Assembly: GCA_963762565.1 (NCBI GenBank)
Contig: CAVXLD010000001.1
Span: 320,001 to 384,000, forward strand
Direction: 5' to 3'
Length of the DNA: 64,000 nt
Origin: an uncultured Verrucomicrobiae bacterium
Lineage (GTDB): Bacteria > Verrucomicrobiota > Verrucomicrobiia > Chthoniobacterales > JAFAMB01
In this document: piece after piece, positions 43,051-61,328 of the stretch
How positions within the stretch are numbered: the first letter of the stretch is position 1
Layout of the letters: every line of letters starts with the position of its first letter
The notes under the pieces: model-generated
What the model was told of the DNA's origin: nothing
The model's database searches: none
Seen by the model: only the letters and a program-made list of their open reading frames with translations
Translations under genes and position numbers: made by a program

Positions 43051-43691
43051 ACGAGCAAGCACTTCTTCACGAGCAATTCACTGACCTCGATCAGCAGCGA
43101 GAAAGTGCAACGGCCGGTATGTGGGTTTTTCTCGCCTCCGAAATTATGTTTTTTGGCGGTCTGATGCTCGCCTTTACCGTCTATCGATTGAACTATGCTC
43201 AGGCTTTCGATGCGGCTAGCCGACAGTTGAACGTGGTTTTGGGGAGTATTAACACGGCGGTCCTTTTTACCAGTGGATTAACCATGGCGCTGGCGGAGAC
43301 CGCCAATAAAATGGGAGCGAAACGCCGCGCCATTATTCTCCTTCTGGCGACCGGAGCGCTGGGGGTTCTGTTTCTCGGAATCAAAGCCGCGGAATACCAT
43401 GAAGATTGGACTAAAGGACTCTTCCCCGGCTCGACCTTTGCTTGGACGGCCCCGGACCAAGCCCATGTCCAGCTCTTCTTCGTCCTCTATTTTATTATGA
43501 CCGGCTTTCACGCTCTACATTTAACGGTTGGAATCGGCCTTATCGGAGTGATCGCATTATTGACAGCGACCGGCTGGGTCAATCGCCAACGCTATCTGCC
43601 GCTCGATGTCGCCGGCATTTACTGGCATTTTGTCGACCTCGTCTGGATTTTCCTGTTCCCGTTGCTTTATCTGTTAGGCGGAAAGACATGA
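43047..43691 (+). CDS. coxC: Cytochrome c oxidase subunit III
   Basis: [28 protein letters not shown]. Confidence 0.95.
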
Positions 43692-47523: not shown

Positions 47524-47676
47524 ATCTTCCAGAATTCGCCGATTGGGAAGCGATCGGTTCTGTTTGTCCTGTCTATCTCGCTTATATAGCCGAACAGATC
47601 CGTTCTGCAGGAGAAGGCAGTGTTTGCTAGCGATTTGTGTCAGCCACTTTTCGGCGAGCGTTTTAAGCCGCTTATT

Positions 47677-48348: not shown

Positions 48349-48460
48349 CCGCTTCGGGGCTGGATACTATCCTCTGTCATGCTGAAGACTCGCTCCAAGA
48401 CCGGGGAACGCCTTATCCACGAACCAGGATAAATGCCCCGAAGCACCACAGAAGGTTCCA

Positions 48461-48925
48461 ATGAAAAGCCAACTTATCAGCGACAACTACGACCGACCTG
48501 CCGGAACCAATCAGAAAAGTTTTGCGATCGTTTTTGATGATGGAGATGAGGTGATAGCCGGGCTCAAGAAATTCGCCGGACAAGAACGCCTTGCAGCCAG
48601 TCATTTTACCGCCATCGGCGCGTTTAAGGACGTAACCCTTGGATACTTTGACTGGGAGAAGAAAGACTACATCAAAATACCGGTCCAGGAACAGGTCGAG
48701 GTTCTTTCGCTCATCGGCGATATTACCTTAAACGACTGGAAACCAAACATCCATGCCCACGTGGTCTTAGGAAAACGGGATGGTAGCACGGCGGGAGGCC
48801 ATTTGATCGAGGCGCGCGTACGGCCCACTCTCGAAGTGATTTTGACCGAATCTCCCGAGCACCTAATTCGACGGCACGACAAACGGTCAGGACTTGCATT
48901 GATATCACTGAGAGACAGTCAATAG
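48461..48925 (+). CDS. PPC-domain (DUF296) protein
   Basis: AIGAF, EVLSLIGDI, HAHVVLG, GGHL. Confidence 0.92.
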   Translation: MKSQLISDNYDRPAGTNQKSFAIVFDDGDEVIAGLKKFAGQERLAASHFTAIGAFKDVTLGYFDWEKKDYIKIPVQEQVEVLSLIGDITLNDWKPNIHAHVVLGKRDGSTAGGHLIEARVRPTLEVILTESPEHLIRRHDKRSGLALISLRDSQ

Positions 48926-49059
48926 ATCCGATGGAATCAGCCTCATGATCGAGGTTCCAATCATTACTTCTGCTGTGTAGCCGAAGATCCGTTCCGCAAC
49001 CTGAATCCAACTTGTCTATCAGGGGAGCGTGAAGACACCGATGGACGCGCCTACGCCCT

Positions 49060-49755
49060 TCAGGGATTCCATTCAACTTTGATCACACCTGGCTCAGCGA
49101 GAATTGTCTGAAGGAATTTCGGCGGTCGTACATCGTGAGAGTAAGCACGCCACCGCACTTCGGCTCGCAGTTCGCGCTGCGAGGTGGGTTTCGTGCAGCT
49201 GAAACTCCATGGCCCGATCTCGTAACCTCCCTCTTTCAAGTTTTCGGCGATTTCATCTTCGGTGGGACCGTTCTCCTCAACCGCGACCGTCAACGTCGCA
49301 TGACGATCCTGTTTGCGGCGCTTCTCTACCAATTTTAAGCCATCCAGTGTGAACAAACCTATCACCAATACCGCCGAGCCAAGGACTAACTGTCCCCCTC
49401 CAAAACACAAACCGAGAGCGGTCGCGAACCAAAGGGTAGCTGCAGTTGTCAGGCCGTGCACTAAACTGCCTTTCCGAACAATTGCGCCGGCGCCAATAAA
49501 ACCCATGCCCGATAAAATGCCCAACGGAAGCCGCATGAGGTCTAACACGGAAAAGGATTCCGGAGTCTTGCCCGATACGGGCAACAAAAGATTAACCTGA
49601 AGCATGCTGACCGAAGCCGCCAAACATACCAGTAAGGTTGTCCGCAAACCGGCTGCGTGGCCGTGTTCGCTTCGATTAAGACCCAGGAGCGCTCCTGCTA
49701 CAACCGTAAGGAGCAGTCGCAGCGCGATCTCAGGCCATTCGATTGAATAAGGCAT
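49060..49755 (-). CDS. MgtC/SapB family membrane protein
   Basis: AGLRT, GMGFIGAGAI, GLTTAATLW. Confidence 0.93.
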   Translation of the reverse strand: MPYSIEWPEIALRLLLTVVAGALLGLNRSEHGHAAGLRTTLLVCLAASVSMLQVNLLLPVSGKTPESFSVLDLMRLPLGILSGMGFIGAGAIVRKGSLVHGLTTAATLWFATALGLCFGGGQLVLGSAVLVIGLFTLDGLKLVEKRRKQDRHATLTVAVEENGPTEDEIAENLKEGGYEIGPWSFSCTKPTSQRELRAEVRWRAYSHDVRPPKFLQTILAEPGVIKVEWNP

Positions 49756-50015
49756 AGAATTAATAATGCCATCTGTGCGCCGATCACTCCAGCGGCCCCT
49801 CGTTGATTTCACCAGTCGACAATCTGTTTACCGATCCGCCGCGCGGCTAAAACATTAGGCTAACCACCAGTCACTTCCTGACGCACACAATCACGCGCGG
49901 CAGCCAAAATGAAGACGAGAGGCGTCGGCATAAACGGACGAAGCTTTCCGACTAAGAACTCCGAATTGGAGCTTTCTCTAAACGTTGTTTTTCAAGCGCG
50001 AAAGAAGAGCTACCT

Positions 50016-51035
50016 CTATCGGCGGACCAATAAGTTCCGCCCCAGCAGATTTAGTCCGATCGTGAAAACGCCGCACAGAACAACCGCGATTAAGGCATCG
50101 CGATGGAGGTCTGTCCAAAGTTGGGAACTCGTGGTCCGTGCCTGGCTATCAAATCGCCCATGGGCGCCATGATCGCCAGCCAGCGGTTCGTAAAGGTTGA
50201 AAGGTCGGTCCGGATTCTCTGGTTCTCCCGTTTGTTGACCCTCAAAAGCGGTATTGGCTAAATATCGGTCGAGCAGCCCCGGAAAGAGCCGGTTGCCAAT
50301 GATCGCCTTTATGGTCGGCATTCCGACAAAGATCTCCCGCCGGCGATGGCGGGAAGCGTAAACGACGGCTTTAGCTCCCACCTCTGGCTGATAGATTGGC
50401 GGTACCGGTTGGGCTTTCTTTCGGAGTCGGCTTTTTACCCAATCAAACTGCGGAGTGTTCATTGCCGGCATCTGAACCATAGTGACCCAGACCTGGCTTT
50501 TGTCATGGATCAGCTCGCTTCGCAGCGAGTCCATGAAACCTTGAATGGCGTGTTTGCTGGCACAGTAGGAAGCTTGTAGTGGAATACCGCGATACGCTAA
50601 AGCGCTGCCGACTTGAATGATAATTCCTCGATCACGCGGCAGCATCCGCTTGAGCGCCGCCAGCGTACCATTAACTACACCCAGGTAGGTAACCTCTGTT
50701 ACCCGCTTAAATTCGGCAGCCGTCATTTCTTTGACCGGCGAAAAGACGCTGGTCATCGCGTTATTGACCCAGACATCTATCGGTCCGAGCTCGGATTCGA
50801 CTTTCCCGGCTGCGGCTTCGACGGCATCGGCGTCAGACACGTCGGCGGGCAGTATCAGCGCCTGGCCCCCGAGCATTGCTACTTCGTGTTTGGCGCCCTC
50901 CAGGCCGTCTTTCCCACGCGCGATCAGCCCTATTCGAGCGCGTTCGCTGCCAGCAAAAGCTTTCGCAATTGCCCGGCCCAGGCCGGCGGAAGCCCCTGTG
51001 ATGACGATCACTCTTGGAGCATCATGACTTTTCAT
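50016..51035 (-). CDS. SDR oxidoreductase with C-terminal TM
   Basis: TGASAGLG, NNA, YCASK, PAMNTPQF. Confidence 0.93.
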   Translation of the reverse strand: MKSHDAPRVIVITGASAGLGRAIAKAFAGSERARIGLIARGKDGLEGAKHEVAMLGGQALILPADVSDADAVEAAAGKVESELGPIDVWVNNAMTSVFSPVKEMTAAEFKRVTEVTYLGVVNGTLAALKRMLPRDRGIIIQVGSALAYRGIPLQASYCASKHAIQGFMDSLRSELIHDKSQVWVTMVQMPAMNTPQFDWVKSRLRKKAQPVPPIYQPEVGAKAVVYASRHRRREIFVGMPTIKAIIGNRLFPGLLDRYLANTAFEGQQTGEPENPDRPFNLYEPLAGDHGAHGRFDSQARTTSSQLWTDLHRDALIAVVLCGVFTIGLNLLGRNLLVRR

Positions 51036-52887
51036 GAGTACCTTTCGTACGATTCTTGAGACCATTTCTCGCTTCAGCAACCGCCCGGATGGCGCGGGCG
51101 TATTCAACCTGTGCAAACAAGAGTGGCGTGTTACCGAGGAAAATTTGTTCGCCGGGATCCGCCTCTTCAGCAAACACCCCCACTTCGTCGGCAATCGATT
51201 CACACTTTATTAAAATTGCTTCCGCCTCCTCGACGCGACCACACTTGGCAAGTACGTGCGCGTACCAGAACGTCGCAGGTAAGAAAGCACCCTCGTAGTC
51301 GCCGACCGGCAGCTGGTCTCCACCGAGCGTCGCGTCCGGCTGGAAACGGTAAACAAATCCGTTAACCATCAGCTTTCGTTCGATTGCCTGTAGCATGCCG
51401 GCGACCTTCGGATGTTCAGCTGGCAAGAAGTCCATCAGTGGAATCAATAGAACCGCTGCGTCCAATGCCTCAGAATCATAACGCTGCACAAACGAGTTTG
51501 CCTTGCTGCTCCACCCTCTTTTCATGACCTCAACGTGGATTGCCCTGGCGGCATCGCTCCAGCGTGCGAGGTCTTCATCGACCCCGAGACCTGTCAGCTT
51601 TGCGATATGCAGCGCTCGTTCGAGGACTACCCAGCTCAAGACTTTGCTAGCAACATAATCGGCCTGTATCGATAGTTCCCAGATCCCATTCTCGGGCAGG
51701 TGCCAGTTGGCCGAGGTGTAGTTAGCGACTCGCCTGAGTAAGCGCCAATGTTTATCTTCCCAAGTGCCGCCAGTTTCAACGTAGATACGCGCGCAGTCAG
51801 CAAAGAAAGCTAGAGAACCAAGCTGACTCTGTTTGGCAGCTCGATTCCCATACCGTACGGGTCGGCTGTCCGCGTAGCCGCGTACTGCGGAAAGCTCGAT
51901 CTCGTCGAGTCGAACCTCACCATCTATACGATAGCAAACCTGCAAAGGTGCATCCGTCGAAGAATCGAGTTCGCAGAGCCAGTCGAGATAGTGCTGCACT
52001 TCGTCGGTCTTTCCGAGCCTGGCCAGCAAGGCCAGCGAAAGAGAAGCGTCCCGGACCCAAGCAAACCGATAGTCGTAATTGCGATCGCCTCCGCGCCGCT
52101 CGGGAAGTGATGTGGTCAACGCTGCCACCGAACAGTCGTACTCGGCATGGGTAAGAAGATGAACGGTCATGGCCGAGCGATGAAGACGGGAGCCAAGTGT
52201 ACCGGCCGCATCAATGCATAAAGTCGCGTTCCAGTTCCGCCAGTATCCGAGCGCTTCTTCAAAAGCCGTCGCCACTCGTTCCAGAGTCCACGCTTCGAGG
52301 CTCAAATTCCAGGCAATCACTGCCCATAAGTCATCCTTCCAATCTTCGAGCTCTGCCCGCGCCGCCTCATCTCCAACGACTAATGGAAACGAGGTCCAAA
52401 CTGCCAGAGTGCCTTTGCGAAAGCGGAACACGACACCACCCAGCGCCGGCCTAGTCTCTTTGGACTGGCCCGTGAATCCCCATCGAGGACAGATTTCAAA
52501 ATGGATCATTTCGGCTCCAGCGCGAAGCCGACGGATAATCACCCGCGAATCACGGAGCGACCGTTCCCGATGATTGGACGGCCAAGTCATTACGTCGGTT
52601 AGCTCCGAAAAGCTATCTCCACTATCTTCGGCCCATGTGGTCGCGACTGCCGCAGTTTCCGGGAGGTAACGCTGTTGGCCCAGGCGAGCCGGCACCGGGC
52701 CGAAACGGCAAAATCCGCCCATCACCGGGTCGAGCAAAGCTCCAAAAATCGGCGTGCCGTCAAAGTTCGGCACACATAACCAATTGAGTGTACCATCCGC
52801 TGCGACTAAAGCACCCGTGCGCCGGTCCCCGATGACGCCATGGCGATTGATCGGAGGAAACGCTAGCGGTTGCTCGACTGTGTTCAT
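51022..52887 (-). CDS. Glycoside hydrolase family 15 (trehalase/glucoamylase-like)
   Basis: IGDRRTGALV, TTSLPE..GGDRNYDYRFAWVRD, GIWE, AEE, LGNTP. Confidence 0.93.
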   Translation of the reverse strand: MNTVEQPLAFPPINRHGVIGDRRTGALVAADGTLNWLCVPNFDGTPIFGALLDPVMGGFCRFGPVPARLGQQRYLPETAAVATTWAEDSGDSFSELTDVMTWPSNHRERSLRDSRVIIRRLRAGAEMIHFEICPRWGFTGQSKETRPALGGVVFRFRKGTLAVWTSFPLVVGDEAARAELEDWKDDLWAVIAWNLSLEAWTLERVATAFEEALGYWRNWNATLCIDAAGTLGSRLHRSAMTVHLLTHAEYDCSVAALTTSLPERRGGDRNYDYRFAWVRDASLSLALLARLGKTDEVQHYLDWLCELDSSTDAPLQVCYRIDGEVRLDEIELSAVRGYADSRPVRYGNRAAKQSQLGSLAFFADCARIYVETGGTWEDKHWRLLRRVANYTSANWHLPENGIWELSIQADYVASKVLSWVVLERALHIAKLTGLGVDEDLARWSDAARAIHVEVMKRGWSSKANSFVQRYDSEALDAAVLLIPLMDFLPAEHPKVAGMLQAIERKLMVNGFVYRFQPDATLGGDQLPVGDYEGAFLPATFWYAHVLAKCGRVEEAEAILIKCESIADEVGVFAEEADPGEQIFLGNTPLLFAQVEYARAIRAVAEARNGLKNRTKGTHEKS

Positions 52888-54647
52888 TCCCGCATGAGGC
52901 TCCGCCCGATTGCTCCAGGGCGCGGAACCCCACGTCCATGCGTTCCGGGCGGTGAGAGATAACGCCGAATCGGGGGCGCTGACAAGTCTCGACGATCTGA
53001 GTTAAAAATCTGTTCTGCCTGTGAAATTAGATAGTCAGCGGTCCTGGCCGCCAGCGCTTGAATCGTCAGTCCCGGATTGGCAGAGCCCTGAGTCGGCAAA
53101 ACGCTTCCATCGCAGATGAACAAATTGGAAATATCATGGGTGCGTCCGAAGCAGTCCACAACAGAGGCGGCCGGATCCCGACCCATCCGCGCACCCCCCA
53201 CCAAGTGCGCATACCTAGGCTCCTGAACGACCTCTTCAGCTCCCGCCGCCGACATGACTTCGACGACCTTGTTTTTGCCAAACTCGATCAATTTCTTGTC
53301 GTTCTCGTGGAGGTTGAAACTGACTCGAGCGACGGGTAATCCAAATTGGTCCTTTTCATCCGCGATGGTCACTCGATTGTCAGCCCACGGTAGAATCTCG
53401 CCTAACAGACCGAAGGCGGCCCAATGGTTATAATCCATCATGACCCGCCGCATCCCCCAGCCCCACACCTGCTTTGCTCCCATCATGTGTTTTGCAAACG
53501 AGATGGGAAGCGGTGAGACGCTCTGAATCGCAAAACCACGCGCGAAATCCCGACGACGATCGGTTTCATAAAATTCTTCCGTCATGGCGTGGGCCGGCGG
53601 AGCTTTGTACATGCGGATAGGTTCGCTAAAGCGGCCCAGAATCACATTTCCGGCCTGAGCCATCAGAAAAAGGCCCAGCGTGCCACTGGAGTTCGCGAGT
53701 CCAGTCTCAAATCCCGAACAAGCCGAGTTCAGCAAAAGGCGGGGCGTCTCGACGGCGTACCCTGCTACAATAACAACCTTTGCTCTCTGAAAATGTTCAC
53801 GGCCTTCTCTATCGTAATAAAGAACGCCTTGAACACGGCGATCTTTGCCAAGCTCGATACGGCCGACCATCGATCGATCCCGAATTTCGGCGCCGCTTTT
53901 TAGCGCATCGGGAACATGCGTTATCAGTGTGCTTGCTTTGGCCCCGACCTTACATCCTTGCAGGCAGTACCCGCGATAAATGCAATGTGGTCGTTCCCCC
54001 CGTGAACCACTGAGAATCGCTACGGGACCACCGATGCTGACTCCGATCCCTAACTTCGTGCACCCGCGGATTAACGCGTTTCCAACCCCGCCCATCGGAT
54101 GTGGCCCAAACGGGTATCCGTGCGGATCCCCCCATGGATACCAGGCTGGACCAGCGACCGGCATTTCCAGCTCGAGCAGCTCGTAGTACGGTTTTAGATC
54201 GCGATAGGTGATCGGCCAATCCGCTCCAACGCCGTCCTCCGAATAAACTCGAAAATCGGAGGGATGAAACCGCGGGGCGAAGCCCGCCCAGTGCACCGAA
54301 CCACCTCCCACGCCTTTACCGCTATTGTTAGCCCCCAACGACAATGGATTGGCGCCGTCAATAATTCTCAAATCCTCCCAATAGAGCTTGCGCGATCCCG
54401 CCTCGTCGCTCACCCAGTCTCGCTCCGTGTCCCAAAATGGACCCGCTTCAATACCAACTACTTTAAATCCCGCTCGCGCTAGTCTCTGAATCAAGACGCC
54501 TCCGGCGGCGCCTACTCCAATGACCAAAAAATCGACGGTTTCTCCCTCGGAATAGTGACACATGGTTCGATTGATCCGTTGCATCGAACCGAGACGGTGC
54601 CGTCCACCGGTTAGTCTCTTGAAAATTCCGCCAAACGGTCTTCTCAT
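52884..54647 (-). CDS. GMC-family flavoprotein dehydrogenase, large subunit
   Basis: GVGAAG FAD motif, VGGGSVHW, CIYRGYCLQGC, HLVGGARMG, NPGLTI. Confidence 0.93.
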   Translation of the reverse strand: MRRPFGGIFKRLTGGRHRLGSMQRINRTMCHYSEGETVDFLVIGVGAAGGVLIQRLARAGFKVVGIEAGPFWDTERDWVSDEAGSRKLYWEDLRIIDGANPLSLGANNSGKGVGGGSVHWAGFAPRFHPSDFRVYSEDGVGADWPITYRDLKPYYELLELEMPVAGPAWYPWGDPHGYPFGPHPMGGVGNALIRGCTKLGIGVSIGGPVAILSGSRGERPHCIYRGYCLQGCKVGAKASTLITHVPDALKSGAEIRDRSMVGRIELGKDRRVQGVLYYDREGREHFQRAKVVIVAGYAVETPRLLLNSACSGFETGLANSSGTLGLFLMAQAGNVILGRFSEPIRMYKAPPAHAMTEEFYETDRRRDFARGFAIQSVSPLPISFAKHMMGAKQVWGWGMRRVMMDYNHWAAFGLLGEILPWADNRVTIADEKDQFGLPVARVSFNLHENDKKLIEFGKNKVVEVMSAAGAEEVVQEPRYAHLVGGARMGRDPAASVVDCFGRTHDISNLFICDGSVLPTQGSANPGLTIQALAARTADYLISQAEQIFNSDRRDLSAPPIRRYLSPPGTHGRGVPRPGAIGRSLMRE

Positions 54648-54681
54648 GGCGATTCTATTCTCATGAAGGAGGATACTGGGA

Positions 54682-55413
54682 TCATTTGCTTATGCCCTTT
54701 CGATCCGGATCGGACAATGCTTCGGAGGGAGCATCCCATTCGTAGCGCTGCTCCTCGACTTCCCAGTATTCCGGTTCCCCTCGCTCAAGGCGCATATAGG
54801 CACGCGGGTAGGCTGGACCGCCGAACCCAATCTCATCCCAGCTCCACGGATGAGCGTAGTAGACTTCCACACAGTCCTGAACTAACAGCGCCCAATATCG
54901 ATCGGCCGGCAAACGTTTCCAGACATCCTGAGCTGGCGTTGGTTTGCCATCATGAATTGACTTCAAGATTTCCTCTTGCTCACGCCAGCTGATCTCCAGA
55001 AACTTGTGACCGGATAACTTTTTCGCCATGGAATTGATCGCGCGCAGACCTAACTGATAAGCTTCTCCGTCCGGCGGCATGCTGGCAAAGCGAAACCCCG
55101 GGATTCGTTTTTCATAAAGACGCTGATCGATAAACGGCACGATCGGGATGCGGTGAGACACATCACGGTCGTCCTGGGGCAAAACATGGTCACAAATGCA
55201 TTCAAGGAGACCCGCCTCTTCGCTGGAGAAAAATCGAATGGCGGGTGGCGGCTCTAGCCTGCCCAGGACAATTTCTCGGGTGGCGGCATCCCAAAACCCT
55301 TGCTGACTTAGCGTGCTGTATCCCGGATAATAGCCCGGCTGAGTTCGCGGCGAAATCGGTTCTCCGGTCTGCGGATCTCTTAGAAGGCGGTCGCTGTTCC
55401 CGATTGTTCTCAC
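54682..55413 (-). CDS. Gluconate 2-dehydrogenase subunit 3-family protein
   Basis: ICDHVLPQ, YYAHP.SW.EIGFGGP; adjacent to the GMC gene. Confidence 0.85.
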   Translation of the reverse strand: MRTIGNSDRLLRDPQTGEPISPRTQPGYYPGYSTLSQQGFWDAATREIVLGRLEPPPAIRFFSSEEAGLLECICDHVLPQDDRDVSHRIPIVPFIDQRLYEKRIPGFRFASMPPDGEAYQLGLRAINSMAKKLSGHKFLEISWREQEEILKSIHDGKPTPAQDVWKRLPADRYWALLVQDCVEVYYAHPWSWDEIGFGGPAYPRAYMRLERGEPEYWEVEEQRYEWDAPSEALSDPDRKGISK

Positions 55414-56414
55414 GTTGTCTCTCTCCGCATCAAGCTAGCAAGAAGTCCGACCACGCCACAGGCGGCAAACAGAAGCGGCGCAAACAGTGGTGGTCCATAG
55501 ATGATGTTATACAAAAGAGTTTTCCGGCCGCCCGGCCGGCGAAACACGCCGCGAGCGTGATAAAAAAAACCGACCGCGCCGTCCGCGATTGCGCAAACCG
55601 ACATCAGCGGCAACCACGTTCGCGCTGTTTTGGGATCACCTATCGCTCCGGCAGCGGCTCCCATCAGTAGCGGCGCGACAATCACCGGCGTCCATTGCGC
55701 TTTGTAACGAAAGTTATTCTTGTAATGCGAGTAGAGCGCTTCGAAACCGCTGAAAAATGTCCCTAACAGGGTGACAGTCGCTAAATGCTTTTGAAAACGA
55801 CCTTCGCGTAAGCCTGGCGTTCCCAAAATGGCGCGGCTAACTTCGGCATACGGCGACAGGCGTCTGAAAAGGCCTGCCTTCGACGACATCTCTTCCGGCC
55901 GCAGAAACGAGGCGATGAATCCGAGATAAGCGCTCACGCCGAAAAGGAGCGGAGCAAAGACCGGAGGCCCCATCACAATGTTAGCGACTGGCAACCGCCA
56001 CCCGCCCGGCTTCCGTTGAATCCCTCGCACATGGAACAAAAAGCCGATCAGGCTGTCCAAAAGGGTCAAGCCGGACACGAAACGGAGTACCGTCCGCGCA
56101 GCCCATCGATTCAAGAAGCCCCACACCCCGGCACCGGCCAGCGCGAAACTCAATATCACGGGCGTATACATAATACGCTGGCCATAGCTCCCTTTGTAAT
56201 GCTCGTAGGCCACTTCGACTCCAGCCAGAACGCTCGAAAGCCCTGACATCAGAGAGAGCGAGCGCTGAAAGCGACCTTCCCGAATGTGAGCGTCGATCCC
56301 GGTTAAATCACGCGCAAGGGTTGATGGTGATCGTTGCTTTGATTGTCTATCCCAGAAAGGGATCTGGCTATGCGATCCTGTGGGCTTCGCGGAAGTCAAT
56401 ATTCTAAGTCCCAT
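55410..56414 (-). CDS. Uncharacterised membrane protein with two homologous 4-TM halves
   Basis: Repeat EGRFQ..HY..TPVI..G..[FY]H.RG...PGG...N...GPP.FAPLLF occurs twice. Confidence 0.85.
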   Translation of the reverse strand: MGLRILTSAKPTGSHSQIPFWDRQSKQRSPSTLARDLTGIDAHIREGRFQRSLSLMSGLSSVLAGVEVAYEHYKGSYGQRIMYTPVILSFALAGAGVWGFLNRWAARTVLRFVSGLTLLDSLIGFLFHVRGIQRKPGGWRLPVANIVMGPPVFAPLLFGVSAYLGFIASFLRPEEMSSKAGLFRRLSPYAEVSRAILGTPGLREGRFQKHLATVTLLGTFFSGFEALYSHYKNNFRYKAQWTPVIVAPLLMGAAAGAIGDPKTARTWLPLMSVCAIADGAVGFFYHARGVFRRPGGRKTLLYNIIYGPPLFAPLLFAACGVVGLLASLMRRETT

Positions 56415-56446
56415 TCACTGGCTCCATGTGTGCGTCTCCCCAGCTT

Positions 56447-57541
56447 TTAAAAATGCTGCCGGTATCGTTCTGCGTCAGCTCGACGAAACGTAACTCCTAG
56501 TCCTGGTCTTGAAAGATCAGGCTTCAACGAACCGTTGGCCGGTTCGGGAAACCCTTCGAAAAACATTCGCTCGATCCGAACGTGGTCATGAAAATATTCG
56601 GCGTGCCGAAAAGGCAGAACGGCGCATCCAGGGTGCAAATGTAGTAGGGGCGCACAATGTGAAGATAAGGGAATGCACCACGATTCACAAAGCGCTGCTA
56701 CTTTCAGAAAGCCACTGATTCCGCAACAACGGGTTGCATCTGCCATGACGACGTCGACGGCGCCTGATGCGATCATTTCCCGGAAATAGGGAAGGTCAAA
56801 GCCATATTCACCATCCGCGATGTCCATATGAGCTGGACTTCGCTGTCTTAGAAAGCGCATCCCGCTTCGATCCTCCGGTGCGAGAGGCTGTTCCATCCAA
56901 CGTACGTCGAATTCCTCAGCGAAACGCTGAATATAGTACAACGCAGTTTTTCGATCGTAGGCGCTGTTCGCATCGACGAATAGCTCCGCTCGATTACCGA
57001 TTGTCCGCCGAGCTAGAGCGACCCGCTTTAAATCCATGCCGGGCTCGCGTCCCACTTTCATCTTTACTCTTGGAATCCCTTGCTCTACCCAATCGCCGAA
57101 CTGCTGCTCTAACTGTTTTTCACTGTAGGAGGTAAAACCTCCGCTCCCATAGATTGGCGCTTCCGCACGCACCCCTCCTAACAGACTGACCAACGGCAGC
57201 TCTAATAGCTTCGCCTTTAAGTCCCATAACGCATTGTCGAGCGCCGAGATCCCCATGGCGGCCATTCCCGTTTGACCAAGGTTTCGCACCTGACGGATCA
57301 TTTCCGTCCATAGAGATACGATATTCATTGGGTCGGCCTCCTCCACTAACGGTACGAGAATGTTTCGCACAAAGGCGGCGGTGCTGACGTCCGCATAGGT
57401 ATAGCCCAGGCCGGTGATCCCTCCGGCAGCCCGGGCCTCCACCAAAACCATCGTCGTCTTGTCCCACGTCAGCGTCCCGTCTGATTCCGGAGCATCGGTT
57501 GGGACCGTGTACGCGGAAACGAAGACCTCCTCAATTTTCAT
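56447..57541 (-). CDS. Mandelate racemase / enolase superfamily enzyme
   Basis: ALWDLKAK, KMK, VDAN, EQP, GEY, HC. Confidence 0.92.
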   Translation of the reverse strand: MKIEEVFVSAYTVPTDAPESDGTLTWDKTTMVLVEARAAGGITGLGYTYADVSTAAFVRNILVPLVEEADPMNIVSLWTEMIRQVRNLGQTGMAAMGISALDNALWDLKAKLLELPLVSLLGGVRAEAPIYGSGGFTSYSEKQLEQQFGDWVEQGIPRVKMKVGREPGMDLKRVALARRTIGNRAELFVDANSAYDRKTALYYIQRFAEEFDVRWMEQPLAPEDRSGMRFLRQRSPAHMDIADGEYGFDLPYFREMIASGAVDVVMADATRCCGISGFLKVAALCESWCIPLSSHCAPLLHLHPGCAVLPFRHAEYFHDHVRIERMFFEGFPEPANGSLKPDLSRPGLGVTFRRADAERYRQHF

Positions 57542-57582
57542 TTTATCTTCAACACGCCGTCTTTAATTAAGGAGTCGATAGC

Positions 57583-59373
57583 TTAAGGTTTCTGCGGAAG
57601 AAGGGTTGCAACCGCGTCTTTAATCGTTTGCTTGATAATTCCTCCCTCTTCAGGATCGCCTTTCAGTAGTGCAGAGGAATAGGCAGCAGCCTGCTTGAGG
57701 GTGATGTGGGGTGGGAGCGGCGGTACGTTTGGATCTGTGTACGCCTCAAGGACAACGGGCCGATCAGCTGAGAGCGCCTCTTCCCAGGCCGGAGCTATCT
57801 CGTTGGGCTTGTCAACGCGAATCCCACGCAGCCCGAGTAACTCAGCGTAGCGGGCAAAGGGAAAGTCTGGAATATCCTGCGAGGCTTCGTACTTCGGATC
57901 GCCCTCCATTACTCTCTGTTCCCAGGTCACCTGGTTAAGATCGCGGTTGTTCAAAACCAGAACGACTAAACGGGGATCACTCCATTCTTTCCAGTACTTG
58001 CTGATCGTGATCAACTCGTTATTGCCAAGCATCTGCATCGCTCCATCGCCAACCAACGCAATTGCCACGCGGTTGGGAAAAGCGAACTTCGCAGCAATCG
58101 CGTAGGGCACCCCGGGACACATCGTAGCGAGATTCCCAGAAAGGGATGCGAGCATCCCACGTCGAATTTTCAGATCGCGGGCAAACCAATTGGCCGCGGA
58201 CCCTGAATCACTAGTAATGATGCAGTTGTCAGGCAGACGAGGCGATAGTTCCCAAAATACCCGTTGCGGATTGATCGGGTCGGCCTCTTGCATCGCCCGG
58301 GCTTCCAGCACCTTCCACCATTCGACGATTTCTTTTTCGAGGCTCTTTCGCCAGGACCTGTCTTTCTTGCGCACAAGCAAAGGAATTAAAGCGCGCAATG
58401 TCTCGGCACTGTCCCCCATTAAATTAACCTCCATTGGATACCGGATACTGAGCATCCGCCCATCAAGGTCAATTTGTACTCCCCGGGCTTGACCCTCCTT
58501 TGGCAAAAACTCCGAGTAAGGAAAGCTCGAGCCGACCATTAGCAGCGTGTCGCAATGAGTCATCATTTCCCAGCTGGGTTTTGTGCCAAGTAATCCGATA
58601 GCGCCCGTCACAAAGGGCAGATCGTCTGGCAACACGGCTTTCCCAAGCAGTGCTTTCGCAACTCCTGCGCCCAGCAAATCGGCGACCTCTACGACCTCAT
58701 TGACCGCCCCTAAAGCTCCGGCGCCGATCAGCATCGCCACCCTTTCTCCGGAGTTAAGAACCTCCGCAGCGCGCTTCAGATCGCGATCGGTCGGCACGGT
58801 TCGCGGTGTGGTGAATCCAACCCCGGAATGGACGGTGCCATGTGCGCGAGGAGGCATTTCAACGGCATCGAGCTCCTGCACGTCATTGGGAATGATGATG
58901 CAGGTGACCGTTCGCTCAACCTTGGCGATCCTCACTGCCCGGTCGACCAGATGTCGGATCTGGGCTGGATGCGATGCCATTTGGATGTATTCCCGCGCAA
59001 CATCTTTAAAAAGGGAAACCAGATCGATCTCCTGTTGATAGTTACCACCTAAGGCCGCGCGAGACTGCTGACCAACGATCGCAACCACAGATTGATGATC
59101 GAGTTGCGCATCATAGAGACCATTGAGCAGGTGCACTGCGCCCGGGCCCGACGTTGCTAGGCACACTCCCACTTCGCCGGTAAATTTGGCATGCGCACAC
59201 GCCATGAAAGCCGCCATCTCCTCATGGCGGACCTGGACGAAGTCGATCAGATCGCCCGCACGATCAAACGCGCCGACGATCCCATTGATCCCGTCTCCCG
59301 GAAATCCGTAGATCCGTTTTATTCCCCACTCCGAGAGTCGTTTCAGTAAAAAATCGCTGACTTTATCCTTCAT
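57583..59373 (-). CDS. ThDP-dependent enzyme, pyruvate oxidase (PoxB)-like
   Basis: PGDG, RHEE, TSGPGAVHLLNGLYDA, GDGAM..NN ThDP motif. Confidence 0.93.
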   Translation of the reverse strand: MKDKVSDFLLKRLSEWGIKRIYGFPGDGINGIVGAFDRAGDLIDFVQVRHEEMAAFMACAHAKFTGEVGVCLATSGPGAVHLLNGLYDAQLDHQSVVAIVGQQSRAALGGNYQQEIDLVSLFKDVAREYIQMASHPAQIRHLVDRAVRIAKVERTVTCIIIPNDVQELDAVEMPPRAHGTVHSGVGFTTPRTVPTDRDLKRAAEVLNSGERVAMLIGAGALGAVNEVVEVADLLGAGVAKALLGKAVLPDDLPFVTGAIGLLGTKPSWEMMTHCDTLLMVGSSFPYSEFLPKEGQARGVQIDLDGRMLSIRYPMEVNLMGDSAETLRALIPLLVRKKDRSWRKSLEKEIVEWWKVLEARAMQEADPINPQRVFWELSPRLPDNCIITSDSGSAANWFARDLKIRRGMLASLSGNLATMCPGVPYAIAAKFAFPNRVAIALVGDGAMQMLGNNELITISKYWKEWSDPRLVVLVLNNRDLNQVTWEQRVMEGDPKYEASQDIPDFPFARYAELLGLRGIRVDKPNEIAPAWEEALSADRPVVLEAYTDPNVPPLPPHITLKQAAAYSSALLKGDPEEGGIIKQTIKDAVATLLPQKP

Positions 59374-59400
59374 TTTTGGCTGCGGGTATTGTTGTTTTCT

Positions 59401-59796
59401 TTATTGAGAGGCCACCGGGTTGCCGCTCGGGTAAGCAATGGTGGTCATCAAAGCGTTTTCGCTTTGCCTCGAATCCAAGCGGGTGTGCTGGACAACGACC
59501 GGCTGGTCCGACTCAAGCAAACTTGCATAGGAGGTCCCCACTGGAATTGCTTCCGGGTCCCTAAGATCGTTAAAACGAAAGTGCCGGGTTCGTCTGGCGG
59601 GCACCGTCAATCGATAAGGCCCTACCGGCTCACGATCGGCGTAAAAGATGGTGAGATCGATGTGCGCGTCATCATTCCCAGCGTTGAGAACGCAAAAAGC
59701 CTCATGACTGGTAAATTCGGGGCTCTTTCCGTGGCTGCGAGGAGGAATATAGCCTTCGGGAATCACCCAACGTCTCTGGCCGATCGCGTTCTCCAT
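59401..59796 (-). CDS. Sensory rhodopsin transducer (ASRT) family protein
   Basis: W.IPEGYIP, SHE..CVLN, DREPVGPY, ARRTRH.RFNDL, VVQHTRLDSRQ. Confidence 0.9.
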   Translation of the reverse strand: MENAIGQRRWVIPEGYIPPRSHGKSPEFTSHEAFCVLNAGNDDAHIDLTIFYADREPVGPYRLTVPARRTRHFRFNDLRDPEAIPVGTSYASLLESDQPVVVQHTRLDSRQSENALMTTIAYPSGNPVASQ

Positions 59797-60162
59797 CAAC
59801 ATCCTTTTGCACGAACTGAGATCCTTGGATTGAGCTGAGCTGGTTTCGCTCTGCAGTTTTTGACCGTGAACTCTTTTCTCTCAGTTCCACTGATGTTCGC
59901 CGAACACCTTCCTTGAGGTCTTATTGAGGTGGTAACAGAGCCTCGTTTTTTAAAAGAAAGTGAAACTGTGGCCTTCGGGACGGCCCCATTTTTATGAGGT
60001 TTTTGCGCCACGCTGATCAAGCAGCGAAGAGTCCGATTGGAATCAATTCGCAGTAGACGCTCTGGGCTTCGAGGTGCCGATTAAGGGGCCACATCTAGAT
60101 CCTCAACACAATCTGGAATGATGTACCGAAGATAGATCTGACCCGACTTGGCTCCCATTAAG

Positions 60163-61197
60163 CTATTTCAGGCACTCCTCGATTTCCGAGAGCTCGCCAT
60201 CAGTTAACGGGGGAAACGCAAGGCCGGCATGCAGTTCTTCAACTTGGCCCGGGCGACTGGCTCCGATAAGGACCGAAGTAATTTGCGGTTGGCGCAAGAT
60301 CCAGGTTACCGCCAGTTGAGCCAGACTTTGGCTACGTTGCCGGGCTACCGCAGCCAGTTTCCGGGCGCGTTCAACCACCTCTTGGCTAACATTCGACGGT
60401 TTCAAGAACCGGCCGGCCTTCCCCGCTCGCGAATCGGCCGGGACCCCGTCTAAATATCGCTCGGTGAGAAGACCCTGAGCTAAAGGGGAAAAAACGATAC
60501 AACCGATCCCTTCCTCTGTCAGCACCCCAAGCAGACCTTCCTCGATGTGGCGATCGAACATATTGTATCGAGGCTGGTGGAGAAGACAGGGCGTACCTAA
60601 AGCGCGCAAGATCTTTGAAGACTCGCGGGTTTGTTCGGGAGAATAATTGGAGATCCCGACATAGAGGGCTTTGCCGCTGCGAACGATCTGGTCGAGCGCT
60701 CCCATGGTTTCTTCCAGCGGCGTCTCCGGGTCAGGGCGATGCGAATAGAAGACATCCACGTAATCCAGCCCCATTCGCTTGAGGCTTTGGTCCAAGCTCG
60801 CGATTAAATATTTTCGGGAGCCCCACTCCCCGTACGGACCGGGCCACATATCGTAGCCGGCTTTCGTGGAGATCACCATCTCGTCCCGATACGCCTTGAA
60901 ATCGGCGGCAAAGATTTGACCAAAGGTGCGTTCGGCAGCGCCTTGAGGAGGGCCATAATTGTTGGCCAGATCGAAATGGGTGATACCGAGGTCGAAAGAG
61001 CGCCGTAGAACGGCGTGGCTGTTAGCGATCGGATCGGCATCGCCGAAATTCTGCCAAAGCCCAATAGAGATTGAAGGCAACAACAACCCGCTCCGGCCTG
61101 CCCGCCGAAAGGCCATCCGATCGTAGCGGGCGGTCGAGGCGACATAGGTCGTGGGTAGTTGCGGAGCCGTTGGTGATAAGAAGCGCTGGGGTATCAT
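60163..61197 (-). CDS. Aldo/keto reductase, YghZ (L-glyceraldehyde-3-phosphate reductase) type
   Basis: GLWQNFG, GITHFDLANNYGPP, STKAGYDMWPGPYG, SPLAQG. Confidence 0.93.
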   Translation of the reverse strand: MIPQRFLSPTAPQLPTTYVASTARYDRMAFRRAGRSGLLLPSISIGLWQNFGDADPIANSHAVLRRSFDLGITHFDLANNYGPPQGAAERTFGQIFAADFKAYRDEMVISTKAGYDMWPGPYGEWGSRKYLIASLDQSLKRMGLDYVDVFYSHRPDPETPLEETMGALDQIVRSGKALYVGISNYSPEQTRESSKILRALGTPCLLHQPRYNMFDRHIEEGLLGVLTEEGIGCIVFSPLAQGLLTERYLDGVPADSRAGKAGRFLKPSNVSQEVVERARKLAAVARQRSQSLAQLAVTWILRQPQITSVLIGASRPGQVEELHAGLAFPPLTDGELSEIEECLK

Positions 61198-61328
61198 GAG
61201 TAGCAGAAATCTCACGCCAAGACGCAAAGACGCAAAGGAGAAGAGTAAGAAAGCGGTGCCCGCAATTTACGTCCTTTACGTTGAAAGATCTGCCTCCTGT
61301 CGCGCCATAGCGAAGCGGCGGCGGATCG

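What the first reader, a model, noticed from the sequence alone, without database searches (positions are those of the whole stretch)
50016..59796. Candidate sugar-oxidising, quinone-linked operon (ASRT - ThDP oxidase - enolase - membrane protein - GMC small/large - GH15 - SDR)
Seen: eight co-directional genes with overlaps or gaps of about 40 bp or less. Known: GH15 enzymes release glucose from trehalose or alpha-glucans, GMC plus subunit 3 pairs oxidise sugars or sugar acids, enolase-superfamily members often dehydrate acid sugars, and PoxB-like enzymes reduce quinones. Inference: a pathway from stored or imported disaccharide, through oxidation and dehydration to oxidative decarboxylation, delivering electrons to the quinone pool. 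I know of no characterised pathway with this gene set.
Basis: partly seen in the sequence, partly recalled or inferred. Interest (0 to 1): 0.75.

Follow-up and report, generated by a model that had tools for sequence, protein, structure and literature searches.

The report
Conserved membrane-linked sugar oxidation gene cluster
A tightly packed set of eight genes, kept together in soil bacteria of at least six phyla, most likely oxidises a sugar inside the cell and passes the electrons to the respiratory chain through a membrane protein family that has no name yet.

Summary
Eight co-directional minus-strand genes lie at 50016-59802 with gaps of 41 nt or less, or short overlaps. They are ASRT, a PoxB-like ThDP enzyme (PRK08273), an enolase-superfamily enzyme, a 334-aa membrane protein with no Pfam family (MEM), a PF13618 small subunit, a GMC large subunit, a GH15 and an SDR.

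The set is conserved. Next to MEM homologues, the small subunit follows in 73 of 75 and 49 of 49 loci. The five-gene core is present in 41 of 52 and 10 of 11 loci. SDR, GH15 and ASRT recur more variably. Named carriers span Verrucomicrobiota, Acidobacteriota, Pseudomonadota, Deinococcota, Actinomycetota and Armatimonadota, often on plasmids.

New here:
- The GMC subunit keeps the FAD-histidine, the catalytic His/Asn and the three 3Fe-4S cysteines of Burkholderia FAD-glucose dehydrogenase.
- The small subunit has no Tat signal, and no cytochrome c is encoded.
- MEM, a duplicated 4-TM unit, takes the place of the cytochrome c subunit and occurs naturally fused to the small subunit.

The enzyme therefore appears to face the cytoplasm. 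My literature searches found no characterisation of the cluster.

The parts
59401..59802 (-). ASRT-family small beta-sandwich protein (133 aa). It is a putative sugar or small-molecule sensor and a variable member of the set.
   Evidence: PF07100 scores 186 bits over positions 1-119 of 119. It is single copy in the genome. It lies within 5 kb of MEM in 14 of 52 loci and 0 of 11, and is present in the Deinococcus plasmid cluster.
57583..59373 (-). ThDP-dependent enzyme of the PRK08273 family, related to PoxB and pyruvate oxidase (596 aa).
   Evidence: NF006129 scores 1081 bits against a cut-off of 724, while the PoxB model NF006591 scores 376 against 792. The best solved relative is E. coli PoxB 3ey9 at 298 bits. 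E51, G442-D443-G444 and N476 are kept in at least 97% of 94 cluster homologues.
56447..57541 (-). Enolase-superfamily enzyme of the mandelate-racemase subgroup type (364 aa). It is a putative acid-sugar dehydratase.
   Evidence: MR_MLE_N and MR_MLE_C are present. The best named model, L-talarate/galactarate dehydratase, scores 193 bits against a cut-off of 500. The best structure is 3cyj at 409 bits, deposited without a function. K160, K162, D190, E217, E245, D268 and H295 are kept in at least 97% of 82 homologues.
55410..56414 (-). MEM: a membrane protein of a family with no Pfam model (334 aa). It is two tandem 4-helix units and is the proposed membrane subunit of the dehydrogenase.
   Evidence: There is no Pfam or NCBIfam hit. 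The internal repeat is 34% identical. The AF2 model has pLDDT 83.8 and pTM 0.80, with eight long helices. H72, H128, H230, H286, E71, E225, R130, R288, N145 and N303 are invariant in 69 sequences. The gene is followed by the small subunit in 73 of 75 and 49 of 49 loci. Natural fusions to the small subunit exist: P0271, P0273 and P0274.
54682..55413 (-). Small subunit of the Gluconate_2-dh3 (gamma, 'hitch-hiker') family, without a Tat signal (243 aa).
   Evidence: PF13618 scores E 5.1e-25. No hydrophobic N-terminal segment is found in 74 of 75 homologues. It has a 4-nt overlap with MEM.
52884..54647 (-). GMC-family catalytic subunit, predicted to carry FAD and a 3Fe-4S cluster (587 aa).
   Evidence: The best solved relative is the B. 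cepacia FAD-GDH alpha subunit 6a2u_B at 195 bits. H119, C222, C228, C232, H481 and N524 align with His105, Cys212, Cys218, Cys222, His476 and Asn519 of that enzyme. All are invariant in 65 sequences.
51022..52887 (-). GH15 glycoside hydrolase with a trehalase-like N-terminal domain and no signal peptide (621 aa). It is an accessory member.
   Evidence: PF00723 scores 158 bits and PF19291 44 bits. The best NCBIfam model is archaeal trehalase TreH1 at 282 bits against a cut-off of 820. GH15 genes lie near MEM in 12 of 52 and 3 of 11 loci and in the Deinococcus, Paraburkholderia, B. multivorans and Frondihabitans plasmids.
50016..51065 (-). SDR of the PRK07109 subfamily with a C-terminal hydrophobic anchor. 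It is an accessory member. The start is ATG 51035 or 51065.
   Evidence: NF005495 scores 482 bits against a cut-off of 264. A C-terminal hydrophobic 17-mer is present in the window protein and in 32 of 39 homologues. It lies near MEM in 31 of 52 and 4 of 11 loci.

Best explanation
The eight genes form one functionally linked, horizontally mobile gene set.

Its heart is a three-part flavoprotein dehydrogenase that faces the cytoplasm:
- a GMC catalytic subunit with FAD and a 3Fe-4S cluster;
- a gamma-like small subunit that has lost its export signal;
- MEM, a new 4+4-helix membrane protein that takes the place of the cytochrome c subunit of the classical periplasmic enzymes. MEM anchors the complex and passes its electrons to the quinone pool.

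This module is coupled to an enolase-superfamily acid-sugar dehydratase and a PoxB-related ThDP enzyme.

The most likely sequence of reactions is as follows. A sugar is freed in the cytoplasm from trehalose or an alpha-glucan by GH15. The GMC complex oxidises it to an acid. That acid is dehydrated to a 2-keto-3-deoxy acid, which is then decarboxylated, probably oxidatively. The membrane-anchored SDR and the ASRT sensor are accessories.

Shown here: the gene set, its conservation, the cofactor and catalytic residues, the absence of export signals and of haem c motifs, and the genetic fusion of MEM to the small subunit.

Inferred: the substrate, the order of steps, quinone as acceptor, and any cofactor in MEM.
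For: Conservation around close MEM homologues (80 loci):
- small subunit adjacent in 73 of 75 loci
- large subunit in 68 of 71
- enolase within 5 kb in 45 of 52
- ThDP in 42 of 52
- all five core genes in 41 of 52

Conservation around distant MEM homologues of about 40% identity, mostly half-size (80 loci):
- small subunit in 49 of 49 loci
- large subunit in 25 of 25
- ThDP in 11 of 11
- enolase in 10 of 11

Annotated plasmids of cultured strains carry the same set in shuffled orders. Examples are Paraburkholderia caledonica (ThDP-ENO-MEM-small-large-SDR-GH15) and Deinococcus sp. D7000 (all eight families).

The GMC subunit keeps the covalent-FAD His, the catalytic His/Asn and the 3Fe-4S Cys triad of BcGDH.

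The small subunit lacks a signal in 74 of 75 loci. No CxxCH motif occurs in any of the eight proteins.

MEM-small-subunit fusions occur in at least three diverged lineages, 54-67% identical to each other. Small-large fusions also exist.

Enolase and ThDP catalytic-type residues are kept in at least 97% of homologues.

Terminal-oxidase or complex-III-type genes lie beside the cluster in the window (ACIII and cox), in Deinococcus, B. multivorans and B. japonicum, and in L101 and L122.
Against: - No substrate, activity or transcript was tested, and no RNA run holds the region.
- MEM has no recognisable cofactor motif and no solved relative.
- The fusions place MEM's termini in the cytoplasm. Its four invariant histidines and many invariant arginines then face outward, away from the 3Fe-4S cluster. 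That does not fit a simple haem relay.
- The complex predictor was not available.
- The fold of a natural fusion gave confident domains but pTM of only 0.52, so no confident interface.
- The modules are separable. Of 26 genomes in the order with a PRK08273 enzyme over cut-off, 13 lack MEM. In 10 such loci ThDP stands alone or with the enolase only.
- GH15, SDR and ASRT are present in only a minority to a little over half of loci.
- The two asparagines that BcGDH uses to hold glucose fall in a stretch absent from this protein. Glucose itself is therefore not assured.
Confidence: 0.55

Rival explanations
1. MEM is the importer or channel for the pathway's substrate, not an electron-transfer subunit. 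The GMC pair hands its electrons to quinone or to another acceptor on its own.
For: MEM has eight helices with conserved polar residues inside and at the ends of helices: E67, D120, N145, E225, D278 and N303. It has no cofactor motif and no haem c motif. The conserved histidine and arginine loops face outward if the termini are cytoplasmic. Weak Foldseek rows are transporters, but at E of 0.05 or worse and TM of 0.21 or less.
Against: The small subunit follows MEM in 122 of 124 testable loci. MEM is fused to the small subunit in at least three lineages. The usual form is a 4-helix half-size protein (71 of 79 loci), which is unlike known sugar carriers. No other electron-acceptor subunit is encoded.
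Confidence: 0.17
2. The ThDP enzyme is simply a pyruvate:quinone oxidoreductase. The GMC complex and the dehydratase feed a non-phosphorylative Entner-Doudoroff-type route whose aldolase lies elsewhere, and the pyruvate is then oxidised to acetate.
For: The closest solved and named relatives are PoxB and pyruvate oxidases. A KDPG/KHG aldolase and a 6-phosphogluconolactonase-family gene flank the cluster in L011.
Against: The enzyme scores far below the PoxB and pyruvate-oxidase cut-offs (376 against 792, and 477 against 742) and belongs to its own model, PRK08273. No aldolase is a conserved member. It was seen in 1 of the 9 first-survey loci (L011) and in none of the 15 second-survey loci whose flanks I annotated. 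The ThDP gene is paired with the dehydratase gene itself, even where the GMC module is missing (PMC2739507).
Confidence: 0.15
3. The genes are only a co-regulated stress or dormancy island, kept together by shared regulation and transfer rather than by one pathway.
For: Neighbours include DUF892, MgtC and PCC/PPC proteins in the window and in several loci. They also include BON and ferritin-like proteins, a universal stress protein, LigD and an MsrPQ-like fusion. Distribution is patchy: 14 of 201 genomes of the order, 19 of 121 of an acidobacterial family and 1 of 151 of the phylum sample. Many copies are on plasmids.
Against: The five core genes stay adjacent through changes of order and down to about 35-45% identity in at least six phyla. 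There are start/stop overlaps and gene fusions. The stress genes vary from locus to locus, while the core does not.
Confidence: 0.08
4. The substrate is not a sugar. The GMC enzyme oxidises some other alcohol, and the enolase-family enzyme is a racemase or cycloisomerase acting on a non-sugar acid.
For: All named enolase-family and GMC models score below their cut-offs. M24 peptidase-like and PF04199 'cyclase' genes sit inside the cluster in Acidobacteria and other loci. The BcGDH glucose-binding asparagines are not matched.
Against: GH15 genes of several subfamilies recur next to the cluster. An aldose 1-epimerase is present in Frondihabitans. ASRT proteins are linked in print to sugar operons (PMC2739507). 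The closest solved GMC relatives are sugar dehydrogenases.
Confidence: 0.05

Closest known systems
Bacterial FAD-dependent dehydrogenase complexes (Burkholderia cepacia FAD-glucose dehydrogenase gamma-alpha-beta; Gluconobacter fructose dehydrogenase; gluconate 2-dehydrogenase)
   Same: Both have a GMC catalytic subunit with the covalent-FAD histidine, the catalytic His/Asn and the three 3Fe-4S cysteines, plus a PF13618 small subunit encoded just upstream.
   Different: Here the small subunit has no Tat signal and there is no multihaem cytochrome c. A new membrane protein stands in the position of the third subunit. The enzyme should therefore sit on the cytoplasmic face, not in the periplasm. 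The small subunit shows no sequence match to the solved gamma subunits.
E. coli PoxB / Corynebacterium pyruvate:quinone oxidoreductase / Lactobacillus pyruvate oxidase
   Same: Both share the three-domain ThDP fold family. PoxB is the best solved match at 298 bits. The ThDP motif and the activating glutamate are kept.
   Different: The enzyme belongs to a separate NCBIfam model (PRK08273) and fails the PoxB and pyruvate-oxidase cut-offs. It is genetically paired with an acid-sugar-dehydratase-like gene, which suggests a different 2-oxo acid. FAD binding and quinone reduction were not tested.
ASRT - 'pyruvate decarboxylase/oxidase' - 'sugar acid dehydratase/racemase' gene neighbourhood described by De Souza, Iyer and Aravind 2009 (PMC2739507; passages read)
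   Same: It is the same three families in one predicted operon, as reported for Rubrobacter xylanophilus and others. ASRT was proposed as an intracellular sugar sensor.
   Different: In the passages I read, that note mentions neither the MEM-small-large GMC module nor GH15 or SDR as partners, and it assigns no reaction. Its supplementary neighbourhood list was not opened.
Succinate:quinone oxidoreductase (complex II) as an architectural analogy (recalled, not tested)
   Same: Both would have a cytoplasm-facing flavoprotein whose last iron-sulfur centre is a 3Fe-4S cluster, docked on a small helical membrane anchor.
   Different: There is no sequence or fold relation to the SdhC/D anchors. MEM is a duplicated 4-helix unit of its own family, and whether it holds haem is unknown.
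Oxidative, non-phosphorylative sugar routes (non-phosphorylative Entner-Doudoroff, Weimberg/Dahms) (recalled)
   Same: The logic is the same: sugar to aldonate to 2-keto-3-deoxy acid through a dehydratase.
   Different: Those routes use NAD(P)-dependent or periplasmic dehydrogenases and then an aldolase or a second dehydratase. Here the first step would be membrane-linked and the 2-keto-3-deoxy acid would go to a ThDP enzyme.

Membership tests
FAD-dependent dehydrogenase complexes (BcGDH / FDH / GADH type) | GMC-fold catalytic subunit related to the BcGDH alpha and FDH large subunits | tested here: met
   6a2u_B scores 195 bits at E 1.9e-56, and 7w2j_A scores 189 bits. GMC_oxred_N and GMC_oxred_C are present.
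FAD-dependent dehydrogenase complexes (BcGDH / FDH / GADH type) | Histidine for covalent FAD and the catalytic His/Asn pair | tested here: met
   H119, H481 and N524 align with His105, His476 and Asn519 (residue roles from PMC6719666). They are invariant in 65 of 65 sequences.
FAD-dependent dehydrogenase complexes (BcGDH / FDH / GADH type) | Three-cysteine motif that binds the 3Fe-4S cluster | tested here: met
   C222, C228 and C232 align with Cys212, Cys218 and Cys222. They are invariant in 65 of 65 sequences. The cluster itself cannot be tested here.
FAD-dependent dehydrogenase complexes (BcGDH / FDH / GADH type) | Small subunit of the Gluconate_2-dh3 family | tested here: met
   PF13618 scores 88.8 bits against a cut-off of 23.4.
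FAD-dependent dehydrogenase complexes (BcGDH / FDH / GADH type) | Tat signal on the small subunit (hitch-hiker export to the periplasm) | tested here: not met
   No hydrophobic N-terminal 14-mer is found in 74 of 75 homologues. The one exception is an ORF that runs into the upstream gene. The window protein starts directly with polar sequence.
FAD-dependent dehydrogenase complexes (BcGDH / FDH / GADH type) | Multihaem cytochrome c as the third, electron-transfer subunit | tested here: not met
   No CxxCH motif occurs in any of the eight proteins. The third conserved gene is MEM.
PoxB / pyruvate:quinone oxidoreductase | Three ThDP-enzyme domains, the GDG...N ThDP motif and the activating glutamate | tested here: met
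   PF02776, PF00205 and PF02775 are present. E51, G442-D443-G444 and N476 are kept in at least 97% of 94 homologues. The roles of these residues are recalled.
PoxB / pyruvate:quinone oxidoreductase | Score over the curated equivalog cut-off | tested here: not met
   NF006591 scores 375.7 against 792, and NF006377 scores 477.2 against 742. NF006129 (PRK08273) scores 1081.4 against 724 and is met.
PoxB / pyruvate:quinone oxidoreductase | FAD cofactor, membrane binding and quinone reduction | not testable with these tools
   There is only an unaligned C-terminal tail of about 25 residues beyond the PoxB match.
Enolase superfamily, mandelate-racemase subgroup (acid-sugar dehydratases) | N-terminal capping domain and C-terminal barrel domain | tested here: met
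   PF02746 scores 58.7 bits and PF13378 scores 183 bits.
Enolase superfamily, mandelate-racemase subgroup (acid-sugar dehydratases) | KxK base, three acidic metal ligands and a His-Asp dyad | tested here: inconclusive
   K160, K162, D190, E217, E245, D268 and H295 are kept in at least 97% of 82 homologues. Assigning them to these roles rests on the recalled subgroup pattern, not on a structural superposition.
Enolase superfamily, mandelate-racemase subgroup (acid-sugar dehydratases) | Membership of a named dehydratase family (score over the curated cut-off) | tested here: not met
   The best model, L-talarate/galactarate dehydratase, scores 193.1 against 500. Arabinonate dehydratase scores 116.1 against 650. 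The nearest structure, 3cyj, has no stated function.
GH15 trehalase / glucoamylase | GH15 catalytic domain with a trehalase-like N-terminal domain | tested here: met
   PF00723 scores 157.9 bits and PF19291 scores 43.9 bits.
GH15 trehalase / glucoamylase | Score over a curated trehalase or glucoamylase cut-off | tested here: not met
   TreH1 scores 282 against 820, and TreH2 scores 207 against 1000. There is no solved relative by sequence.
ASRT (PF07100) | Full-length match to the family model | tested here: met
   186 bits over positions 1-119 of 119.
SDR subfamily PRK07109 | Score over the curated cut-off | tested here: met
   NF005495 scores 481.9 against 264.

The most novel reading that the evidence does not exclude
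The cluster encodes a self-contained sugar-oxidation pathway wired directly to the respiratory chain, and no such pathway has been described.

1. A cytoplasmic GH15 frees glucose from stored trehalose or alpha-glucan.
2. A cytoplasm-facing FAD/3Fe-4S GMC dehydrogenase, held by a new 4-helix-repeat membrane protein family, reduces quinone.
3. The aldonate is dehydrated by the enolase-family enzyme.
4. The 2-keto-3-deoxy acid is oxidatively decarboxylated by the PoxB-like enzyme. This would be a second quinone-reducing step and would give a 2-deoxy-aldonate.
5. The membrane-anchored SDR carries that product onward.

The route would need neither ATP nor NAD at its early steps. It would let soil bacteria draw maintenance energy from compatible-solute stores during starvation or after rewetting.
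Probability: 0.15. Interest if true: 0.85.

Novelty: new variant of a known kind. Interest (0 to 1): 0.68.

Why it matters
If the reading holds, three things follow.

- The FAD-dependent sugar dehydrogenase complexes are so far known as periplasmic enzymes with a Tat-exported hitch-hiker subunit and a cytochrome c subunit. They would have a widespread cytoplasm-facing branch with a different membrane partner.
- A large unnamed membrane protein family would gain a role. It has 4159 hits in one search and 697 representatives at 50% identity.
- A PoxB-like enzyme family and an enolase-superfamily family, both without a known reaction, would be placed in one pathway.

The cluster sits in abundant but poorly understood soil groups (Acidobacteriota, Chthoniobacterales) and on plasmids of cultured strains. 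It can therefore be tested at the bench. It may also bear on how such bacteria use stored sugars for persistence.

Tried and rejected
**Complex prediction.** At the tool said it was not available. Nothing was folded, so the MEM-GMC contact is untested by that route.

**Fold of the natural fusion P0271** (alignment A9). The domains are confident (mean pLDDT 79.1), but pTM is 0.52 and the linker is disordered. It gives no usable interface.

**Fold searches.**
- Foldseek with both models found nothing at E of 0.001 or better.
- The VIA-align wide search gave as best hit a soluble tandem four-helix 'conserved metalloprotein', 3d19, at Z 15.3. By the tool's own note this is borderline for helical bundles. 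I take it as architecture only.

**Sequence searches of the PDB.** Nothing was found for MEM, the small subunit or GH15.

**Artefacts set aside.**
- Alignment A7 was misaligned and discarded. A9, with four fusion rows as anchors, replaced it.
- The apparent fusions P0128, P0272 and P0035 are frameshift or gene-call artefacts.

**Expression and signals.**
- No RNA holder is listed. Four soil-metagenome DNA runs of one study hold the region.
- The promoter and terminator scan found nothing beyond chance: 8 against 6.1 expected, and 14 against 14.2 expected. No promoter-like site lies in the 360-nt upstream spacer.
- An ECF-type motif (GGAAC-N17-CGGT at 59863-59888) is not distinguishable from chance: 5 matches in the window against 2.42 expected.
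- Base composition shows no island signal.

**Earlier findings of this scan.** Nothing to show.

**Literature.** Searches found no paper on the cluster. PMC3155924 concerns the classical periplasmic gluconate 2-dehydrogenase BCAM1356-1358. PMC10551460 only lists PF13618 in a table. Supplements of PMC2739507 were not opened and may list this neighbourhood in more detail.

**AKR gene upstream (60163-61227).** It is not part of the set. It gave no hit in any surveyed locus.

Full report
**What is in the window.** Eight ORFs lie head to tail on the minus strand between 50016 and 59802.

| Gene | Coordinates | Junction with the gene before it |
|---|---|---|
| ASRT | 59401-59802 | first gene |
| ThDP enzyme | 57583-59373 | 27-nt gap |
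| enolase-superfamily enzyme | 56447-57541 | 41-nt gap |
| MEM (334 aa) | 55410-56414 | 32-nt gap |
| small subunit | 54682-55413 | 4-nt overlap |
| GMC large subunit | 52884-54647 | 34-nt gap |
| GH15 | 51022-52887 | 4-nt overlap |
| SDR | 50016 to ATG 51035 or 51065 | 14- or 44-nt overlap |

A 360-nt spacer precedes the set and a 203-nt spacer follows it. A consensus scan finds no promoter-like or terminator-like sites beyond chance, and none in the upstream spacer. The layout fits one operon, but transcription was not tested. No RNA run holds the region.

**Is the set conserved?** I anchored two surveys on the least common gene, MEM.

Survey 1 used an alignment of close homologues against one genome per species. 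It matched 349 stretches, of which 325 were confirmed and the best 80 were kept. I ran tblastn with the window's proteins and counted only loci with enough flank (hits needed E of 1e-10 or better and at least 40% coverage).

Survey 2 used a homologue only 40% identical (P0136) against metagenome contigs. It matched 194 stretches, of which 122 were confirmed and the best 80 were kept. Here 71 of 79 MEM genes are half-size, with a single 4-helix unit.

| Gene near MEM | Survey 1 | Survey 2 |
|---|---|---|
| small subunit directly downstream | 73 of 75 | 49 of 49 |
| large subunit | 68 of 71 | 25 of 25 |
| ThDP enzyme | 42 of 52 (within 5 kb) | 11 of 11 (within 6.5 kb) |
| enolase-family gene | 45 of 52 (within 5 kb) | 10 of 11 |
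| all five core genes | 41 of 52 | 10 of 11 |
| SDR | 31 of 52 | 4 of 11 |
| ASRT | 14 of 52 | 0 of 11 |
| GH15 | 12 of 52 | 3 of 11 |

In survey 2 the small subunit is only 30-46% identical and the large subunit 54-60% identical to the window's proteins.

Annotated plasmids of cultured strains show the same set in different orders:
- Paraburkholderia caledonica: ThDP-ENO-MEM-small-large-SDR-GH15, which is the window's order.
- Deinococcus sp. D7000: ThDP-ENO-SDR-half MEM-small+large (one 865-aa CDS)-ASRT-GH15-GH15.
- Burkholderia multivorans: SDR-GH15, ThDP, and ENO-MEM-small-large, lying between cytochrome c oxidase and cytochrome bd genes.
- Bradyrhizobium japonicum: ThDP-ENO-MEM-small-large-PPC-SDR.
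- Granulicella tundricola: ThDP-ENO-cyclase-MEM-small-large.
- Frondihabitans: half MEM-small-large, with GH15 and an aldose 1-epimerase nearby.

By record titles and annotations, the carriers span Verrucomicrobiota, Acidobacteriota, Pseudomonadota, Deinococcota, Actinomycetota and Armatimonadota.

**Distribution.** The cluster is an accessory trait. MEM was found in:
- 1 of 151 genomes sampled from the window's phylum, namely the window's own genome;
- 14 of 201 genomes of its order, and in none of 3 same-genus genomes, which are 81-89% complete;
- 19 of 121 genomes of the family of Silvibacterium.

In the order, 13 of the 14 MEM genomes also have a PRK08273 enzyme. The reverse does not hold: 13 of the 26 genomes with that enzyme over cut-off lack MEM. 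In 10 such loci, ThDP has the enolase gene beside it in 4 (with ASRT too in 2 of these). None has a MEM, small-subunit or large-subunit hit.

The set is thus built of two modules: ThDP-enolase(-ASRT) and MEM-small-large. The first module was already noted in 2009 as an ASRT neighbourhood (PMC2739507, passages read).

[quoted passage not shown] In that alignment:
- H119 matches the histidine that carries FAD covalently;
- C222, C228 and C232 match the three cysteines that hold the 3Fe-4S cluster;
- H481 and N524 match the catalytic pair.

The residue roles come from PMC6719666 (passages read). All six residues are invariant in 65 sequences. Four of 68 loci were left out of that alignment because the tblastn match ran past the stop codon.

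The small subunit belongs to PF13618, the 'hitch-hiker' family. In the classical enzymes this subunit carries the Tat signal that takes the complex to the periplasm. Here the N-terminus is polar, and no hydrophobic segment is present in 74 of 75 homologues. No protein of the cluster has a CxxCH haem c motif. Two defining features of the classical complexes, export and a cytochrome c subunit, are therefore tested and not met. The enzyme should work on the cytoplasmic side.

**MEM.** This protein has no Pfam or NCBIfam family and no sequence relative in the PDB. It is common in metagenomes: 4159 hits at E of 0.001 or better among 8000 scored candidates, and 697 representatives at 50% identity.

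MEM is an internal duplication (34% identity between its halves), and most distant relatives are single 4-helix units. The AlphaFold model is confident (pLDDT 83.8, pTM 0.80) and shows two four-helix bundles. Fold searches give nothing specific.

Invariant residues cluster at one end of helices 1 and 3 of each unit: E71-H72, H128-x-R130, N145, and the GPP-x-FAP motif.

Besides adjacency, the strongest link to the GMC pair is genetic fusion. P0271, P0273 and P0274 are full MEM proteins joined by a linker of 20-35 residues to a full small subunit. They are 54-67% identical to each other and come from different sources. Small-large fusions also exist.

The fused small subunit has no signal. This places MEM's C-terminus, and by helix count its N-terminus, in the cytoplasm. 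A weak positive-inside count agrees (19.2 against 12.9 K+R). The invariant histidine and arginine loops then face outward.

That orientation is awkward for a simple haem relay from the 3Fe-4S cluster. What MEM binds is left open: quinone, haem, a metal, or nothing. The complex predictor was not available. The fold of a natural fusion gave no confident domain packing (pTM 0.52).

**The other enzymes.**
- *ThDP enzyme.* It scores 1081 bits on PRK08273 but only 376 on the PoxB model, whose cut-off is 792. PoxB is its best solved relative. The acidobacterial copies are a sister group, scoring 641-653 bits on the same model.
- *Enolase-family enzyme.* It keeps K160-x-K162, D190, E217, E245, D268 and H295 in at least 97% of 82 homologues. 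By recall this is the pattern of the mandelate-racemase subgroup, which holds the acid-sugar dehydratases. It passes no named dehydratase model. Its nearest structure, 3cyj, has no stated function.
- *GH15.* It is trehalase-like by domain content but scores below all cut-offs, and it has no signal peptide.
- *SDR.* It is a clear PRK07109 member with a C-terminal hydrophobic anchor, shared by 32 of 39 homologues.

**How it most likely works.** Two kinds of enzyme in the set can make a 2-oxo acid: a dehydratase acting on an aldonate, and a GMC dehydrogenase of the gluconate-2-dehydrogenase kind. The set also holds a ThDP enzyme of the family that decarboxylates 2-oxo acids and, in PoxB, reduces quinone.

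Together with the recurrent GH15 genes, scattered neighbours point to a glucose-level sugar handled inside the cell:
- an aldose 1-epimerase;
- a 6-phosphogluconolactonase-family gene and a KDPG aldolase;
- further alpha-glucan hydrolases.

Terminal oxidase or complex-III-type genes lie beside the cluster in the window (ACIII at 31757-39036 and cox at 40331-43691) and in several carriers. This fits a respiratory role.

It is the best explanation, amended by the cytoplasmic, MEM-anchored dehydrogenase.

Against it:
- Nothing enzymatic was tested.
- The asparagines that hold glucose in BcGDH have no counterpart here.
- The modules can exist apart.
- Stress-type neighbours (DUF892, MgtC, PPC, BON, LigD, an MsrPQ-like fusion) allow the weaker reading of a co-regulated island.

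**Novelty.** My searches of the paper library found no characterisation of the cluster, of MEM, or of a Tat-less GMC/gamma pair. Only the ASRT-ThDP-dehydratase neighbourhood is in print. I rate the finding a new variant of a known kind of enzyme complex, embedded in a possibly new pathway. It can be tested directly in cultured, harmless carriers.

Noticed in passing
window 31757-43691 (+): An alternative complex III operon lies about 6 kb from the cluster. It has a cytochrome c7-like protein, a 1001-aa Fe-S subunit, NrfD, ActD and a cytochrome c. It is followed by SCO1 and cytochrome c oxidase subunits II, I and III. Oxidase or complex-III-type genes also flank the cluster in the Deinococcus, B. 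multivorans and B. japonicum plasmids.
   Followed up: partly
window 47005-49812 and loci L023, L029, L055, L061, L062, L071, L101, L176: DUF892 (47005-47523), a PCC/PPC-domain protein (48461-48925) and MgtC (49060-49812) lie just downstream of the cluster. They recur near it in other genomes. In B. japonicum the PPC gene sits between the GMC gene and the SDR gene.
   Followed up: partly
window 59863-59888 (-); L002, L003, L007, L019 upstream regions: GGAAC-N17-CGGT lies about 60 nt upstream of the ASRT start. Four Chthoniobacterales loci share GAATCC/GAGTCC/AAATCC-N17-CGTT upstream of the cluster. This may be an ECF-type promoter, but in the window the pattern is no more frequent than chance (5 matches against 2.42 expected).
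   Followed up: partly
G265:C20:21015-21949 and G265:C21:31391-32312: One genome of the same family carries MEM split into two half-size genes, and in two copies. Each copy lies about 1.3-1.4 kb from a PRK08273 gene.
   Followed up: no
L130, L132, L140, L146, L042: A fusion of cytochrome b561 with a molybdopterin oxidoreductase domain (MsrQ-MsrP-like) recurs next to the half-size-MEM form of the cluster. So do a Pyr_redox_2 flavoprotein and a PF04199 'cyclase'.
   Followed up: no
L140, L146, L035, L176: Crp/Fnr-type or cNMP-binding regulator genes lie directly beside the cluster in several carriers. This hints at control by oxygen or cyclic nucleotides.
   Followed up: no
window 61666-62772 (-): This is a 368-aa protein with a signal-like N-terminus and about nine repeats of a 'DAPGAGTG.GQGT...G...D..G..HGF.R' unit. 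It has no Pfam family.
   Followed up: no
window 669-3315 (+): A gene of the ADP-dependent glucokinase/phosphofructokinase family is followed by a DeoC/LacD-family aldolase gene, next to an ABC permease gene.
   Followed up: no
window 27118-30290 (-): A KaiC-like double ATPase gene lies directly upstream of a hybrid histidine kinase/response regulator gene.
   Followed up: no
P0248: This is a distant single-unit MEM homologue with a weak LEA_4 (late embryogenesis abundant) motif at its N-terminus. The motif scores 29.9 bits, below the cut-off of 51.1.
   Followed up: no
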